From Cladosporium halotolerans (lineage: Eukaryota): 64,000 nucleotides of DNA. The notes beneath the pieces are model-generated. The model was not told the DNA's origin. It did not search any database and was given only the letters and a program-made list of their open reading frames with translations. A program made the position numbers and the translations under genes. Every line of letters starts with the position of its first letter. The first letter of the stretch is position 1. The stretch spans positions 186,001-250,000 of the forward strand of contig NW_027191484.1 of NCBI RefSeq assembly GCF_011745625.1, given 5' to 3'. Below are positions 51,384 through 55,825 of the stretch, one piece after another.

Positions 51384-53447
51384 CTACAATGCAGAGAAGA
51401 CGAAAAGCTGTGGTGTGTCAGTTTAGCGTGAAGAAGGCTGTGGCTGCCGTTGGTAGAAGCTTACATTATTCGTAGCAGCGATGGCAATGCTGTCCTCATG
51501 GGGATGCCAACTCATGTGCAGGATCTTCTTGTTGAAGTCGATCTGGTCCGCGTCTGTCTCCTTGCGCATGCGCTGCGCACCGCCAGCGGGCGAGCTCGCA
51601 CGGCTACCCTTCTTGCCGTCCTTACCAGCGCCGGCGTTCATGGGCGTAGGGATACCGACCTTCTTGGCTTTGAAGGCGCTCTTGTCAGCCTGAAGGACGA
51701 CTTCGGTGTCCTTGTCAGGATCGCTGGGGTAGATCATGAAGTTGTTGTTGTAGGAGCCAGTCATAACGTTCCTCGCATCACCAGAGAAGGTGACCTCAAA
51801 CTTGTCGAAAATGCTGTCGTTCTCATATGTGTCGCAGAGTCTCGGGCGGAGGTGCTCGTGGATGGGGATAGTCTTGACTGGCTGACGTTCCATGTTGACG
51901 TCCCAGATCTTGACCGTGAGGTAGTCACGCGAGAGGATGTAGCGGCCGTCGTGACTGAAACGGACGTCGGAGATGGAAGAGATAATTTCCGAGAAGAATG
52001 AGCGAGACGATGGGTCTTCTTCTTGTTCGAACTCTGCGAGACAGTCAGAAATGATCTTACAGACATCGAGATGGATCTCTCTTTCGATACTTACGCTTCG
52101 CATGCTCGTCACAGAGAGCCTTTTGCCTCATGTCAGCCAACTTGATCGTGCCCTTGCTAGACGCATACATAAACCAGTTGCAGCTGGTAGGGTGAAACTC
52201 GGCAGCGGTGATGACCTCTGTAAGCTCCTCCATGTTCGCAGGCTTGATGTCCACGATGTTGAAGCTCTGATCTTGGATGTTCAGGTTCCACAGGTTTATC
52301 CGCAAGTCATCACTGCTAATGAATGTCTCGCCGTCGCTGTTGACGGATATGCTGTTGATGTGGTAGGCGTGCGCATTGGCGTACACTTTCCGCGGTACCG
52401 CCGCAACCACAGTGTCGTGATGTGTCATGCGAGGGAATTTGAGGTCTGCCACGGAGCGGAAGTGCTGGTTAGGATACCGCACTGGTCCGCCGCCATTTGC
52501 GCCGCTCGCACCAGCCGGAGTCAGCTCTGATGAGAGATTGTTCTCTGCCACCACCTTCAGGGATTTTTCAAACACCTTCCAGAGCTTGATGGTCTTGTCA
52601 TTTGTTGACAACAGGTAGTGTGACGCATTCTGTCTCTTGCACCACTTGATCTTGTTGATCTTCTCCTCGATCTCCAGGGATTTTAGGTAGTCGAATTCGG
52701 GCTCGTGTGACTGGAACTCGGTGTGGAACTTGTACTCGCAGGTCTTCTTGGTTTCGTTACGTTCGAAGAGTACGACTCTGCCACCCTTGTCACCAGTCGC
52801 CAGGTAGTTGCCGGTTTGGTCGAACTCGACGGTGGATATTATGTCTGCCTCAGTGATATCTTCTACATCACCTTTGTCACCGAAGCACCTAAAACCGTGT
52901 GTCAGCCAATTGTTCCCCAAGCGTTTGCTTTCTCGAAAGTCTGTGCTGCTCAACATGGCGGTGGCCGTACTGAGTAAAGCGCCACGTTGGATTAGGCTTG
53001 TGACGCCGATTTTCACAAAGCACTGCGCTGTCATCGCTTGACCCGGAAGCAGAGCTGTCTGATTGATACGACCGGGTAGAGTTCTGGTTTGAAGAGGACT
53101 CGAGTATATGGTCGTTGGCCGTCTCGGAACCCGATGACTCCGAGCACGTGAGGGGCTCAGCAAACTCATGACCGTCTTCAGCTCGCTCAGCAGCGCCCTC
53201 ACGGCCTGCCCGATTCGTACGGTCAAGGAAAGCGCTTCTCATTGCCTTCAACATGCTTGAGTATGGTGGTCAAGCGGCGTGAAGCTCCCGTGTCCGGCCA
53301 GAGAGAACAATGAACAGCATAGCAGTACAGTACGGCCACCATCCAGCGATAACAGCAGACAAAGGGATATGCGAGTGTTTGTAGAGGCGGCACTTACTGC
53401 GTAAACTTCCAAGTCGGCGGCTGCGAGCCGTCGCCTGCCTCCACCAT
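51384..53447 (-). CDS. CDC55: Protein phosphatase 2A regulatory B (B55) subunit
   Basis: [49 protein letters not shown]. Exons 53447-53398, 52888-52095, 52033-51465 and 51407-51384 (LFVFSAL*). Confidence 0.97.
52971..53254 (-). CDS. Putative alternative first coding exon of PP2A B55
   Basis: ATG at 53254 opens 94 codons ending [16 protein letters not shown], the same motif and phase as the canonical exon (PPTWKFT-CA|GTAAGT). It splices in frame to the acceptor at 52889. Confidence 0.75.
53328..53340 (-). promoter_or_regulatory. 13-nt intronic element complementary to the alternative-exon splice donor
   Basis: CAGTACGGCCACC (53328-53340) is the exact reverse complement of GGTGGCCGTACTG (52960-52972). 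Confidence 0.6.
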
Positions 53448-54396
53448 CTTCCCGGTGCTCGTGCCTGTCGAGCTTGCCGTATCCTTGCGCGGTAACGTAG
53501 ACTGTCCGGCTTCTGCCGCCAATGGTTCCTTCTTAGTTTGACTTGCTCTTCACCGTCCAGGGATGCAACACTTGTGAAGGGGCGGCGTGCTGCAAGTGTT
53601 GGGGTGGTGAGCGGGTGGTTGAAGGCCTGGGGAAGGCAGGGCGGTGTCAGGAGCGGCTAGTCGTCGGGCGCGTGAAGCGTCGGGAGCAGGTATGCTGGAT
53701 GGGAGCTCGCGATGTGGCGCGTGTGATGCCACTCAGGGCGATGTTGCAAAGCTGCACTTTCACGCAGAGGTATCGAATCGGTGTACTGCCCTGCCTGTGC
53801 GAAGAGAGGTTGGTACGTAATGGCGGTCCGGCGAGTTTCTCGTTGCGGGGCTTTGCTTGGGAGAGTGGCAGGTCAGCCGACTCGACGACAACATCTGCCT
53901 CTACAACAGCGTCAGCTTGTGTCTCCACTAGGAAACGCCCAGAGTACTATCGAGCAATTAAGATCGTCTCGGTGCTGTCATCATCAGGCGGTCTCAACAC
54001 CAGCTTCAAAATCAATTTCAATTTCTTGAATACGCCGTAGCGCTTGAAAAAAGGCACTCGATCATGCTATCCTTGAACGTTTGAACGACGTCACAGCAAT
54101 AAACATAGATCGCGCGATCAACTGCGCTGCACTCAGATGGCCATGTCCACATTGCTAAACGAAGTCTTCACTTTAAGTCTGGCTTTCATGCTTTCGTTCA
54201 TGGCAAAAAAGGCTTGGATTCACTCACGAAAGCCTACCTCGATGTCGAAATATGATCGGATCTTACTATCTGCGTTGATTTGATTCGCCGATGGAGCGGC
54301 ACATATCAACTTCGAATATGGCCCCTATCAGCCGTAATAGAGACATCAAGCCTGACGACAACTTGGGTCGATTTAACAAAAGGAAGAAAGGCGTCT

Positions 54397-54873
54397 TTAC
54401 ATTGCTCTACCAATATGACTGATCCTGCTCAACCTCGCACTCCAACCACTATAATACCGATTCGTCTTCCTGGTGTTTCTCCTCGCATCGACCTCATTCC
54501 CAGCCTCCTCAACAACCATCGGCTCCATAACAGCAGGTCTTGTTGTCGCCCTGTCTGGTACAGTGACTTGTGGGCCTGCCGTCACAACGCCGTAGCCGCC
54601 ATACGCCGGGGCCAAAGGTATCGGCATGGCATTTTTGTTCCAAGGATGAAACTCGTTTCGTCCATCTTTCACACTATAGCCTCTCGAGACTCGCTTGTCC
54701 TTGCGCTTTCGTCGGCATCTGCACAAGAGGCACGCGACGATTATGAAGGCCGCTACCAGAACGCAGGTTAGGACGACCAGCCAGATGATGGTTTGACGAC
54801 TGAGGGCTGCGGGCTTGTGTTCGCTCGAGAAGCTGAAGGGCGAGGCATCTGTTTGTCTTGGTGAGGCTGCCAT
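54397..54873 (-). CDS. Small single-pass membrane protein
   Basis: IIWLVVLTCVLVAAFIIVACLL followed by CRCRRKRKDK. The start may lie further upstream. Confidence 0.65.
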   Translation of the reverse strand: MAASPRQTDASPFSFSSEHKPAALSRQTIIWLVVLTCVLVAAFIIVACLLCRCRRKRKDKRVSRGYSVKDGRNEFHPWNKNAMPIPLAPAYGGYGVVTAGPQVTVPDRATTRPAVMEPMVVEEAGNEVDARRNTRKTNRYYSGWSARLSRISHIGRAM

Positions 54874-55825
54874 GGCTACCGATGTAGCGCGTTGGTAGTA
54901 GGGTAAGGAAAGCTTTGCTGCCAACGTACGAGTCGTCGGCTTGGAGATGAAGTCCAGCTTCTCGTAGTCAATGTCGTGTTCGATAATCACGCGTTTTATC
55001 AGCTCTTGTCAACAGCGAGTGACATCTACAAGATGATCCGATCTTGCAGAAGCGTGCAATGTCCGAATCACAAAGTAGACCAGAGATCTGCAAGAGGCAT
55101 TGTCCTTTGTCGGCTCAAGCGAGAGTGTCCCAAGAATTTGGACAAAGGAGACCGTCGATGTCTACGCCACTTCCGGTATGATCGTACCATCGCTGAAAGA
55201 ACCAAGACAAAGAGGATCCTGGCCAGCCTGCCATTCTAGGCTCGACCCAGGAATTTTGAATAGCCCATACCAGAACGGCCGTGCGATTGTTCACCCACTT
55301 GGAAGTCGCCTGACAATGCTATTGTTCTCGCAATCACTAGCGGCACGCCGCTGTGAGCAAGCTGGATGCATGAATGGTCTGACAATATCTGCAATCACAA
55401 TCAATCAAGCCACAATACCGTACTTGAATCCAAAGCGTGATGCGGTCACTGGCCCTACCTGACTCAGCTTAGTCTGCTGTAGCACGAGTGACCAAGCACG
55501 TCAACATTTACAGATATTGACGGCAGCCGCACAGCCAACATGCGCAGCTTTCGAACACCCGTGACTTGATACCTAAAGTACCCGTTCTAAAACCCCCGCA
55601 AGCAAGCTGTAAAATAGGCCCGCGTGAGAGCTAAAACAAGCCCAGAGCGATCGAACACTGTCTTCAAATCATCATCAGCGCAAACAAAGCCCTTGCACGT
55701 AGCATAGCATTCTTGCGAGACAATCCTTTCACGAACAAAGAAAGCAGAAATTGGATAACCAGCTGAGGTCCAACCAAACCTCACACTCTCCGAATCGCAC
55801 GTGAGCGGCGGAAAACACGATCAAC

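What the first reader, a model, noticed from the sequence alone, without database searches (positions are those of the whole stretch)
52960..53340. Antisense element able to mask the inner splice donor of PP2A B55 (promoter-coupled RNA switch)
Seen: in the pre-mRNA, GGUGGCCGUACUG (53340-53328) is perfectly complementary over 13 nt to CA|GUACGGCCACC, which spans the inner exon's donor (52972-52960), with weaker pairing beyond. The element lies between the two first exons. Inference: transcripts from the distal promoter contain it and sequester the inner donor, enforcing distal-exon splicing, while transcripts starting downstream of 53328 lack it and use the inner donor. A perfect 13-mer centred on a splice site within 400 nt is unlikely by chance.
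Basis: partly seen in the sequence, partly recalled or inferred. Interest (0 to 1): 0.8.

Follow-up and report, generated by a model that had tools for sequence, protein, structure and literature searches.

The report
RNA helix covering a splice donor
In a Cladosporium fungus, the gene for the B55 regulatory subunit of phosphatase PP2A has two alternative first coding exons, and a short intron sequence can base-pair over the splice donor of the inner exon; related species keep this pairing through matching mutations, so it probably helps decide which protein start is made.

Summary
The 13-nt perfect complementarity (53340-53328 with 52972-52960, minus strand) is real and covers positions -2 to +11 of a splice donor. 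On its own it is not beyond chance: 27 of 100 shuffled windows hold such a repeat. The context makes it more than chance.

- **Gene:** a Cladosporium PP2A B55 gene with two alternative first coding exons. Exon 1a (17 codons) is universal in fungi. Exon 1b (95 codons) is confined to a Capnodiales-like clade. Both occur in 10 of 77 related metagenome loci, and exon 1b shows coding constraint.
- **Conservation:** in the window and 3 Cladosporium-like loci the helix persists as 13-14 bp although the arms differ. There are two compensatory pair changes, and the helix has shifted by 4 nt in one lineage.
- **Folding:** it is predicted to form with probability about 1 in 3 of 4 sequences.
- **Limits:** it is not found in six other lineages with the same exon layout. 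RNAalifold does not recover it. Four sequences are too few for formal covariation statistics.

I read it as a selected long-range RNA helix that blocks the exon-1b donor and loops out exon 1b, favouring the short isoform. The proposed coupling to promoter choice could not be tested, because no RNA reads could be laid.

The parts
53398..53445 (-). Exon 1a (distal first coding exon, coding part): ATG 53445 ... [17 protein letters not shown], ending in CA (phase 2). The 5'UTR and start site upstream are not mapped.
   Evidence: The same N-terminus is annotated or transcribed in relatives (P0004, P0027, P0121-P0133). Spliced mRNA contigs L005 and L013 join this exon type to exon 2.
53392..53397 (-). 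Distal 5' splice site GTAAGT (consensus).
   Evidence: GTAAGT is present in all 10 two-exon loci.
53328..53345 (-). Upstream arm. The 13-nt core is 53340-53328 (GGUGGCCGUACUG). It extends by one G-U pair and three more pairs up to 53345. It starts 57 nt after the distal donor and ends 74 nt before the exon-1b ATG.
   Evidence: The homologous arm in L001-L003 differs in sequence but still pairs.
53288..53319 (-). Two blocks conserved in the four Cladosporium-like sequences, directly after the arm: TGCTGTTCATTGTT (53319-53306) and CTGGCCGGACACGG (53301-53288). Function unknown. They could be the core promoter or leader of exon-1b transcripts.
   Evidence: invariant columns. They are not conserved outside the genus-level group.
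52971..53254 (-). Exon 1b (inner alternative first coding exon): ATG 53254, 95 codons, [15 protein letters not shown]...PNPTWRFTQ, ending in CA (phase 2).
   Evidence: A homologous long N-terminus (MF....L.DRTN ... W.F.Q) is annotated in many Capnodiales. All alignment gaps are multiples of 3, and variable columns by codon position are 39/86, 42/86 and 67/85. No Pfam family matches.
52955..52972 (-). Downstream arm. The core CAGUACGGCCACC (52972-52960) covers the exon-1b 5' splice site (GTACGG, 52970-52965). It extends to 52956.
52889..52970 (-). Short intron from the exon-1b donor to the common acceptor. The candidate branch site CTGAC is at 52905-52901 and the acceptor AG at 52890-52889. The whole exon 1a to exon 2 intron is 53397-52889 (509 nt).
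   Evidence: GCTGAC is invariant in the 4-sequence alignment. That it is the branch site is inferred from the fungal CTRAY consensus, which I recalled.
52095..52888 (-). Exon 2, the common WD40 body starting (Q)[13 protein letters not shown]. The later exons are 52033-51465 and 51407-51384 (stop included).
   Evidence: It is 99-100% identical to the Cladosporium B55 proteins P0001-P0003.

Best explanation
The two arms form a selected, long-range helix within the B55 pre-mRNA: 13-14 bp plus a short second segment, with 355 nt looped out.

In any transcript that holds both arms, that is RNA started at the distal promoter, the helix would do two things:
1. It buries the non-consensus 5' splice site of exon 1b (CA|GUACGG), so that U1 snRNP cannot bind it.
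2. It loops out exon 1b. The path from the consensus exon-1a donor to the branch site and acceptor shrinks from 509 nt to roughly 120-130 nt, an ordinary fungal intron size.

Both effects favour splicing of exon 1a to exon 2, which gives the short canonical B55. The long isoform (exon 1b to exon 2) is made only when the helix is absent.

**Shown here by computation:** the arms, their position on the donor, the two conserved first exons, the predicted stability, and conservation with compensatory change in the genus-level group.

**Inferred:** that pairing blocks U1, that it bridges the intron, and how the long isoform escapes.
For: 1. **Position.** The helix covers -2 to +11 of the exon-1b donor.
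2. **Both first exons are real.**
   - 10 of 77 related loci carry both. L007 is cut off upstream. Other fungi have only exon 1a, with an intron of 74-263 nt.
   - Long and short N-termini are both annotated across Capnodiales.
   - Exon 1b shows coding constraint.
   - Short-form spliced mRNAs exist in relatives (L005, L013).
3. **Conservation in the window, L001, L002 and L003.** The donor window is the best or nearly the best partner of the inter-exon segment.

   | Sequence | Control windows as good | Shuffles as good |
   |---|---|---|
   | Window | 0/302 | 0/300 |
   | L001 | 0/283 | 0/300 |
   | L002 | 3/280 | 0/300 |
   | L003 | 0/310 | 2/300 |

   (all)
4. **The arms have changed but still pair.**
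   - L001 and L002 have a perfect 13-bp helix shifted 4 nt toward the exon.
   - L003 has 14 bp with 3 G-U pairs.
   - There are two double changes: G-C to A-U, and U-A to C-G.
   - The L003 arm pairs poorly with the other species' donors (-11.5 kcal/mol) but well with its own (-21.3 kcal/mol).
   - Random placement of the same number of substitutions keeps that stability in only 23-72 of 20000 trials.
   - The blocks flanking the arm are invariant while the arm itself changed at 7 of 17 positions.
5. **Predicted folding.** Pair probabilities are about 1.0 in 3 of 4 sequences, whatever flanks are included. Keeping the arm single-stranded costs 15-21 kcal/mol in those three.
6. **Donor accessibility.** The mean predicted unpaired fraction of the donor is 0.17, 0.00, 0.23 and 0.00 with the arm present. 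It is 0.45, 0.37, 0.24 and 0.44 if the RNA starts after the arm.
7. **Donor strength.** All distal donors are GTAAGT. No inner donor has the consensus T at +6.
Against: - RNAalifold on the 4-sequence alignment does not predict this helix. It prefers other pairings for both arms.
- The formal covariation count rests on 4 sequences and is weak. There is 1 compensatory pair in the MAFFT register, and 119 of 500 shuffles are as high for percent paired.
- In L002 the helix has a predicted probability of 0.09 or less, because of a competing GC-rich partner. The enforced helix is 4.5 kcal/mol above the minimum free energy.
- Lineages with the same two-exon layout show no clear donor-masking helix. 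L004, L006, L009, L011 and L012 do not, and L008/L010 is only borderline.
- The comparison that gives the small simulation probability was chosen after seeing the data, and it is one lineage contrast.
- The 4 NCBI Cladosporium gene models (P0001, P0002, P0003, P0131) do not use the CA|GTAYGG donor. They read through it. Whether that reflects RNA evidence is unknown.
- No RNA evidence for the long isoform, for its start site, or for the helix in vivo was obtained.
Confidence: 0.55

Rival explanations
1. Chance complementarity that persists only because the four sequences are closely related. The helix has no function, and splice choice is set by donor strength, distance and promoters alone.
For: - Shuffled windows hold 0.35 such repeats on average, and 27 of 100 hold at least one.
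- Only four related sequences are available.
- The tool's shuffle control is not significant.
- RNAalifold does not recover the helix.
- The two-exon layout works in other genera without a detectable helix.
- The 9-bp core (GCCGUAC-UG) is unchanged in 3 of the 4 sequences.
Against: - L003 changed 7 of 17 arm positions and 2 donor positions and still forms 14 bp, including two double compensatory changes. Simulated neutral change keeps that stability in at most 72 of 20000 trials.
- The window and L001/L002 keep 13 perfect pairs using different end extensions.
- The donor window beats nearly all control windows in all four sequences.
- The first 16 intron bases after the donor are far more conserved than a 6-nt splice signal needs.
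Confidence: 0.22
2. The helix is functional, but there is only one class of pre-mRNA, from the distal promoter, and no internal promoter. Choice between the two donors is then an alternative 5' splice site decision, set by whether the helix forms (folding kinetics, helicases, temperature).

The long isoform would be translated from an mRNA that retains exon 1a and the inter-exon segment as a leader. The exon-1a frame would then be a 17-codon upstream ORF that stops at the retained GTAA.
For: - The exon-1a frame ends in TAA immediately after the donor (CAG|TAA).
- The arm-to-ATG distance is only 74 nt and the whole inter-exon segment is 143 nt, so there is little room for a separate promoter.
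- A competing structure with similar energy exists in L002.
- RNAalifold finds alternative partners for both arms.
Against: - There is no RNA evidence either way.
- Conserved blocks right after the arm could equally be a core promoter.
- An upstream ORF plus a 143-nt spacer would make translation of the long form inefficient. This last point is inference.
Confidence: 0.15
3. The pairing promotes use of the exon-1b donor or serves another role. It could bring elements together as in the Neurospora NCU01977 riboswitch intron, or the arm could be a DNA or protein-binding site of the inner promoter whose complementarity to the donor is incidental.
For: - In N. crassa NCU01977, long-distance pairing next to a 5' splice site increases its use (PMC3597705; abstract read).
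- The arm adjoins conserved blocks that may be promoter elements.
Against: - Here the helix includes the GU and positions -2 to +7 or further of the donor in all four sequences. That is expected to exclude U1 pairing (established knowledge of 5' splice site recognition).
- A protein-binding DNA site would conserve sequence. The arm instead changed at 7 of 17 positions in L003 while keeping complementarity.
Confidence: 0.06

Closest known systems
Long-distance base pairing in the Neurospora crassa NCU01977 TPP-riboswitch intron (Li and Breaker 2013, PMC3597705; abstract read)
   Same: It is in a filamentous fungus. An intronic element pairs over hundreds of nucleotides (about 530 nt there, 355 nt here) with a sequence at or near an alternative 5' splice site, and this decides which donor is used.
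   Different: There the partner is part of a ligand-binding aptamer, and pairing next to the donor increases its use. Here no aptamer or any Rfam family is present. The arm covers the donor itself and is predicted to repress it, and the alternatives are two first coding exons.
Docking-site and selector-sequence competing RNA structures of mutually exclusive exons: Dscam, ATE1 and others (PMC6071210, abstract read; PMC7797038 and PMC4691838, search listing only)
   Same: Alternative exons share homologous ends (TWKFTQ|GTA versus TWRFTQ|GTA), only one of them joins a common exon, and conserved intronic complementarity is involved.
   Different: Those systems have one docking site with two or more competing selectors, and pairing activates the neighbouring exon. 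Here I found one arm pair only, with no second selector. The exons are first exons with their own start codons, and pairing is predicted to silence the exon.
5' splice sites sequestered in stems: MAPT exon 10 stem-loop and artificial hairpins in yeast pre-mRNA (recalled, not from a call)
   Same: The donor sits inside a helix, so U1 access is reduced and a competing donor or skipping wins.
   Different: Those are local hairpins of a few nucleotides of loop. Here the loop is 355 nt and contains a whole coding exon.
Intron 'zipper' stems in long budding-yeast introns that bring the 5' splice site and branch point together, for example the RP51B intron (recalled, not from a call)
   Same: Complementary segments shorten the effective donor-to-branch distance in an organism that defines introns rather than exons.
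   Different: Those stems mask no competing splice site and are not linked to isoform choice.

Membership tests
Long-range intramolecular RNA pairing that controls splice-site choice | Two complementary segments within one pre-mRNA, stable enough to form | tested here: met
   13/13 perfect pairs plus an extension, duplex -33.7 kcal/mol. Pair probabilities are about 1.0 in the window, L001 and L003, and 0.09 or less in L002.
Long-range intramolecular RNA pairing that controls splice-site choice | One arm overlaps a splicing signal | tested here: met
   The 3' arm covers -2 to +11 of the exon-1b donor. The site is homologous to the donor used in gene models of other genera (W.F.Q|CFGDKGD).
Long-range intramolecular RNA pairing that controls splice-site choice | Pairing conserved with compensatory substitutions | tested here: inconclusive
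   Met qualitatively in 4 sequences: two double changes, and the simulation keeps the observed stability in at most 72 of 20000 trials. The formal counts on 4 rows are not significant, RNAalifold disagrees, and no helix is detected in other genera.
Long-range intramolecular RNA pairing that controls splice-site choice | Disruptive mutations change splicing and compensatory mutations restore it | not testable with these tools
   This needs minigenes or genome editing in Cladosporium.
Alternative first exons driven by alternative promoters | Two exons, each with a start codon and a donor, joined to one acceptor | tested here: met
   Sequence anatomy. Both exons are present in 10 of 77 loci. Both protein forms are annotated in relatives.
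Alternative first exons driven by alternative promoters | A separate transcription start for the inner exon | not testable with these tools
No long-form transcript-derived protein was found.
Docking/selector system of mutually exclusive exons | One docking site with two or more competing selector sequences | tested here: not met
   Only one strong partner exists for the arm. The other candidate partners are weak and interrupted.
Eukaryotic TPP riboswitch splicing control | A TPP aptamer in the intron | tested here: not met
   The Rfam scan of 52700-53800 at E up to 1 gave only a sub-threshold snoRNA-like match: 15 bits against a gathering score of 45.
PP2A regulatory subunit B55 (PR55/Cdc55) | Full-length similarity to B55 WD40 propeller proteins | tested here: met
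   Exon 2 (264 aa) is 99-100% identical to Cladosporium B55 models and 88-97% identical to other ascomycete B55 proteins. 2534 hits have E of 1e-30 or below.

The most novel reading that the evidence does not exclude
This would be a promoter-coupled, self-masking splice switch. The arm sits between two transcription starts, so the choice of promoter alone decides whether the exon-1b donor is buried or free. PP2A-B55 then gets two mutually exclusive N-termini without any trans-acting splicing regulator.

The helix is kept by selection through compensatory change and by sliding of its ends. It may have arisen in Cladosporium because the inner donor there is closer to consensus (GUAYGG) than in sister genera (GUGCGA).

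My searches found no natural, ligand-independent example of this kind described in filamentous fungi.
Probability: 0.25. Interest if true: 0.7.

Novelty: new member of a known kind. Interest (0 to 1): 0.5.

Why it matters
PP2A-B55 is a central regulator of mitotic exit and nutrient signalling. The finding matters in three ways.

- **Biology of the clade.** A whole order of environmentally tough fungi has a second, about 70-110-residue N-terminus on B55, encoded by an extra first exon. That is itself little noticed. Current Cladosporium gene models mis-splice or fuse this region.
- **A simple test system.** If the helix controls which N-terminus is made, it gives a genetically testable natural case of RNA-structure-based splice-site choice in a filamentous fungus: one helix, two donors, one acceptor. 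Until now fungal examples are essentially the TPP riboswitch introns.
- **Genome annotation.** Donor-masking helices could explain why strong-looking internal donors in long fungal introns are skipped.

Tried and rejected
- **RNA evidence.**
  - The look-up of sequencing runs listed 20 holders of the stretch, but no RNA holder.
  - So there is no junction, start-site or depth evidence.
- **Own genome.** None is held.
- **Exon 1b peptide against longer proteins.** No hit. This is weak evidence, because the E-value is scaled to 5.8 billion sequences.
- **NU13 long N-terminus (residues 1-96) against the protein collection.** Only the 3 NCBI Cladosporium models were found, and no Logan or JGI transcript-derived long form.
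- **More Cladosporium DNA.** A pattern scan of the prokaryote genome collection for the conserved block after the arm gave 8 bacterial chance matches, none with B55 context.
- **A wider 'bridge' test.** I ran the whole inter-exon segment against the whole short intron with duplexfold. It gave sprawling duplexes and uninformative controls, so I dropped it.
- **Cassette-exon idea.** Exon 1a could be spliced in frame to an AG just before the exon-1b ATG. The AG is present in only 7 of 10 loci, and the purine at -3 fits a start-codon context instead. No gene model among the proteins held joins both exons. I rejected it as a conserved feature.
- **Known RNA families and an intron snoRNA.** Nothing reached threshold.
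- **The sigma-70 promoter and terminator scan** is irrelevant to a eukaryote.
- **Earlier findings of this scan.** Nothing was found by place, sequence or words.
- **Rows left out of the duplex tests.** L007 has no upstream sequence, and L005 and L013 are mRNAs. L010 duplicates L008 in this region and is counted with it as one lineage.
Full report
**1. The observation**

On the minus strand, 53340-53328 (GGTGGCCGTACTG) is the exact reverse complement of 52972-52960 (CAGTACGGCCACC), with 355 nt between them. The pairing continues weakly with one G-U pair, a one-base bulge and three further pairs. The duplex energy is -33.7 kcal/mol.

It is the only perfect inverted repeat of at least 13 nt within 400 nt in the window. 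Dinucleotide-preserving shuffles of the 64-kb window give 0.35 such repeats on average, and 27 of 100 shuffles have at least one. The 13-mer by itself is therefore what a reader of 64 kb can expect to meet by chance.

What is unusual is where it sits. None of 302 other 26-nt windows of the inner exon and short intron pairs as well with the inter-exon segment. None of 300 shuffles of that segment reaches the observed energy.

**2. The gene**

The window is eukaryotic, and no whole genome is held for it. The ORF that starts at 52888 (minus strand) is the WD40 body of the PP2A regulatory subunit B55. It is 100% identical over 264 aa to a Cladosporium fusiforme model and 99% identical to Cladosporium sp. 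NU13. It is 88-97% identical to B55 of other ascomycetes.

The gene model I derive is:

| Feature | Coordinates (minus strand) | Notes |
|---|---|---|
| Exon 1a | ATG 53445 to 53398 | [17 protein letters not shown]; donor CA\|GTAAGT at 53397 |
| Exon 1b | ATG 53254 to 52971 | 95 codons, [15 protein letters not shown]...PTWRFTQ; donor CA\|GTACGG at 52970 |
| Branch-like site | 52905-52901 | CTGAC |
| Acceptor AG | 52890-52889 | common to both donors |
| Exon 2 | 52888-52095 | WD40 body |
| Exon 3 | 52033-51465 | |
| Exon 4 | 51407-51384 | includes the stop codon |

**3. Both first exons are real and conserved**

Proteins of Capnodiales-type fungi come with two kinds of N-terminus.
- The short kind is universal in fungi: MVEA.DG.QPTWKFTQ|CFGDKGD. 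Examples are Sphaerulina, Zymoseptoria, Dothistroma, Ramularia, Acidomyces and Logan/JGI contig proteins.
- The long kind has 69-110 extra residues. It begins MF....L.DRTN and ends W.F.Q|CFGDKGD. Examples are Pseudocercospora, Meristemomyces, Saxophila, Recurvomyces, Friedmanniomyces, Hortaea, Zymoseptoria brevis and Cladosporium.

A metagenome scan with exon 2 returned 80 loci, and an exon 2 start could be placed in 77 of them.
- 10 loci (L001-L004, L006, L008-L012) carry both exons in the same order as the window. The distal donor lies 414-525 nt upstream of exon 2 and the inner donor 63-87 nt upstream.
- L007 is cut off upstream.
- The other genomic loci have only the short exon, with an intron of 74-263 nt or none.

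Exon 1b behaves as coding sequence in the four closest sequences. All alignment gaps are multiples of three, unlike those in the flanking intron. Third codon positions vary most: 67 of 85, against 39 of 86 and 42 of 86. No Pfam family matches the extension.

L005 and L013 are intron-less, full-length mRNA contigs of relatives. They join the short exon to exon 2, and L013 ends in a run of A. The short form is therefore expressed in related species.

I found no transcript-derived long form.

**4. Is the pairing conserved?**

Three loci (L001, L002, L003) are Cladosporium-like, with 99% identity in exon 2 and a similar exon 1b. In all of them the homologous intron segment pairs with the homologous donor.

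| Sequence | Arm / donor | Helix |
|---|---|---|
| Window | GGUGGCCGUACUG / CAGUACGGCCACC | 13 bp |
| L001, L002 | GCCGUACUGUGUG / CACACAGUACGGC | 13 bp, perfect, shifted 4 nt toward the exon |
| L003 | GGUCAUAUUGCGUG / CACGCAGUAUGGCU | 14 bp, three of them G-U |

Each has a further 3-7 bp segment beyond a small internal loop.

Between L001 and L003 the arm differs at 7 of 17 positions and the donor side at 2 of 17. All four affected pairs of the helix stay paired. Two change on both sides (G-C to A-U, and U-A to C-G). Two change to G-U.

The L003 arm pairs poorly with the donors of L001 or the window (-11.5 kcal/mol). It pairs well with its own donor (-21.3 kcal/mol). When the same number of substitutions is placed at random, the observed stability is reached in 23-72 of 20000 trials, depending on the assumed transition bias.

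The blocks on either side of the arm are invariant in the four sequences. The arm is therefore free to change in sequence but not in complementarity.

The window lost four pairs at the exon end, through a 5-6-nt insertion in the arm and two synonymous changes in the last codons. It gained pairs at the other end.

**5. Caveats on conservation**

- The formal count on the MAFFT alignment covers 17 pairs and 4 rows. It gives 83% of cells paired, against 23-57% for slid partners. In that register it finds only one compensatory pair, and the shuffle control is not significant.
- RNAalifold does not predict the helix. It pairs the distal-donor region AAGUGCCG with the end of exon 1b (UGGCACUU), and the inner donor with the start of exon 2.
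- In L002 a GC-rich competitor lowers the helix probability to 0.09 or less. The enforced helix lies 4.5 kcal/mol above the minimum free energy.
- Outside the Cladosporium-like group the same test gives nothing clear.

| Locus | Control windows as good | Shuffles as good |
|---|---|---|
| L008/L010 (borderline) | 0/305 | 9-19/300 |
| L009 | 13/205 | 11/300 |
| L011 | 43/205 | 22/300 |
| L004 | 73/324 | 10/300 |
| L006 | 185/297 | 236/300 |
| L012 | 76/313 | 109/300 |

- The inter-exon segment is not alignable beyond the genus-level group.

The helix is therefore a feature of one genus-level lineage, not of the two-exon architecture as such.

**6. Predicted behaviour**

In the window, L001 and L003 the helix pairs have probabilities of about 1.0. 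This holds whether the RNA is folded from the distal ATG, from the donor, or with 150-nt flanks (the minimum-free-energy fold contains the helix, z = -2.4). Forbidding the arm to pair costs 15-21 kcal/mol.

With the arm present, the mean unpaired probability of donor positions -3 to +6 is 0.17, 0.00, 0.23 and 0.00. If the RNA starts just after the arm it is 0.45, 0.37, 0.24 and 0.44. The predicted release is real but moderate, because other local partners appear.

**7. Mechanism**

The distal donor is a perfect GTAAGT in all 10 loci and in the window. No inner donor has the consensus T at +6: the forms are GTACGG, GTATGG, GTGCGA, GTGGGA and GTGTGC.

In a transcript from the distal promoter the two donors compete for one acceptor. 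The inner donor is weak but only 82 nt from the acceptor. The distal donor is strong but 509 nt away, which is long for a fungus that recognises introns as units (established knowledge).

A helix that buries the inner donor and loops out 355 nt removes the competitor. It also leaves about 57 nt from the distal donor to the helix and about 57 nt from the helix to the branch site. This favours the short, canonical isoform.

How the long isoform escapes is open. The CT-rich conserved block directly after the arm is compatible with that, but it does not show it. The other option is the same pre-mRNA with the helix open. In that case exon 1a becomes a 17-codon upstream ORF, since its frame stops at the retained GTAA.

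**8. What is known**

Long-range pairing that decides donor use is established in several systems.
- In Neurospora it is part of a TPP riboswitch (PMC3597705; abstract read).
- In Drosophila it occurs in long-range intron structures (PMC2724269; search listing).
- In mutually exclusive exon clusters it works through docking and selector sequences, and can arise by duplication (PMC6071210; abstract read).

Here there is no aptamer and no second selector. The arm lies on the donor itself.

My searches found nothing on alternative first exons of fungal B55, and no ligand-independent example of this kind in filamentous fungi. These searches cover open-access text only.

I class the finding as a new member of a known kind. 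The promoter-coupled version would be a new variant.

**9. Verdict**

- A selected donor-masking and intron-bridging helix is the best explanation (0.55).
- Chance plus shared ancestry remains a serious rival (0.22).
- The decisive data are more Cladosporium genomes, transcript starts and junctions, structure probing, and disruptive and compensatory mutants.

Noticed in passing
window 53395-53387 with 52987-52979 (minus strand); alignment A1 columns 6-14 with 448-456: A second conserved complementarity. Intron positions +3 to +11 after the distal donor (AAGUGCCGY) can pair with the end of exon 1b (RUGGCRCUU, the W-H/R-F codons). It has 8-9 bp in all four Cladosporium-like sequences and is part of the predicted minimum-free-energy fold of L002. 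It crosses the donor-masking helix, so the two would exclude each other or form a pseudoknot. Both segments are constrained for other reasons, so conservation says little.
   Followed up: partly
window 53254-53210 (minus strand); proteins P0005-P0012, P0019, P0023, P0028, P0134: The long isoform starts with a motif conserved across the whole clade (M-F/L-x-x-h-K/R-x-A-h-x-D-R-T-N-R), followed by an acidic, serine-rich, poorly conserved stretch. No Pfam match. A paper in the search listing reports that helices in substrates bind B55 (PMC11446282; abstract start only). Whether this N-terminal motif folds back on the propeller is an open idea and was not tested.
   Followed up: no
proteins P0001, P0002, P0003, P0131, P0006, P0013, P0014, P0026: Public gene models of this locus are inconsistent. 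All four Cladosporium models read through the exon-1b donor (…FTQ-YG[HY]RQ…). P0001 and P0006 fuse the upstream neighbour gene with B55 (the window's 54397-55008 minus-strand ORF, a small membrane-type protein). Several others extend the short exon upstream.
   Followed up: partly
proteins P0042, P0048, P0068, P0072 (lichen-forming Teloschistales): These B55 models carry a different alternative N-terminal piece (…EEPLNELQ.HWAHC.RR|CFGDKG) in place of or after TWKFT(Q/H). This hints at an independent extra 5' exon in that order.
   Followed up: no
proteins P0034, P0037-P0040, P0043 and many others: Many Xylariales, Hypocreales and lichen gene models (800-1000 aa) join B55 to a UAA-transporter domain (PF08449). 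This is either a recurrent neighbour-gene fusion in annotation or a real fusion.
   Followed up: no
L008 and L010, 63-89 nt after the distal donor, with the inner donor region: In a Saxophila-like lineage the inner donor (GTGCGATCTCTA) can pair with an intron segment at almost the same relative position as the Cladosporium arm. The energy is -27.1 kcal/mol; 0 of 305 control windows and 9-19 of 300 shuffles are as good. It could be an independent donor-masking helix, but the two loci are identical there, so there is no covariation test.
   Followed up: partly
window 53269-52889 (minus strand): The exon-1b reading frame stays open through the donor and the whole short intron, and stops exactly at the TAG of the acceptor. 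This probably explains why gene predictors read through the donor.
   Followed up: no
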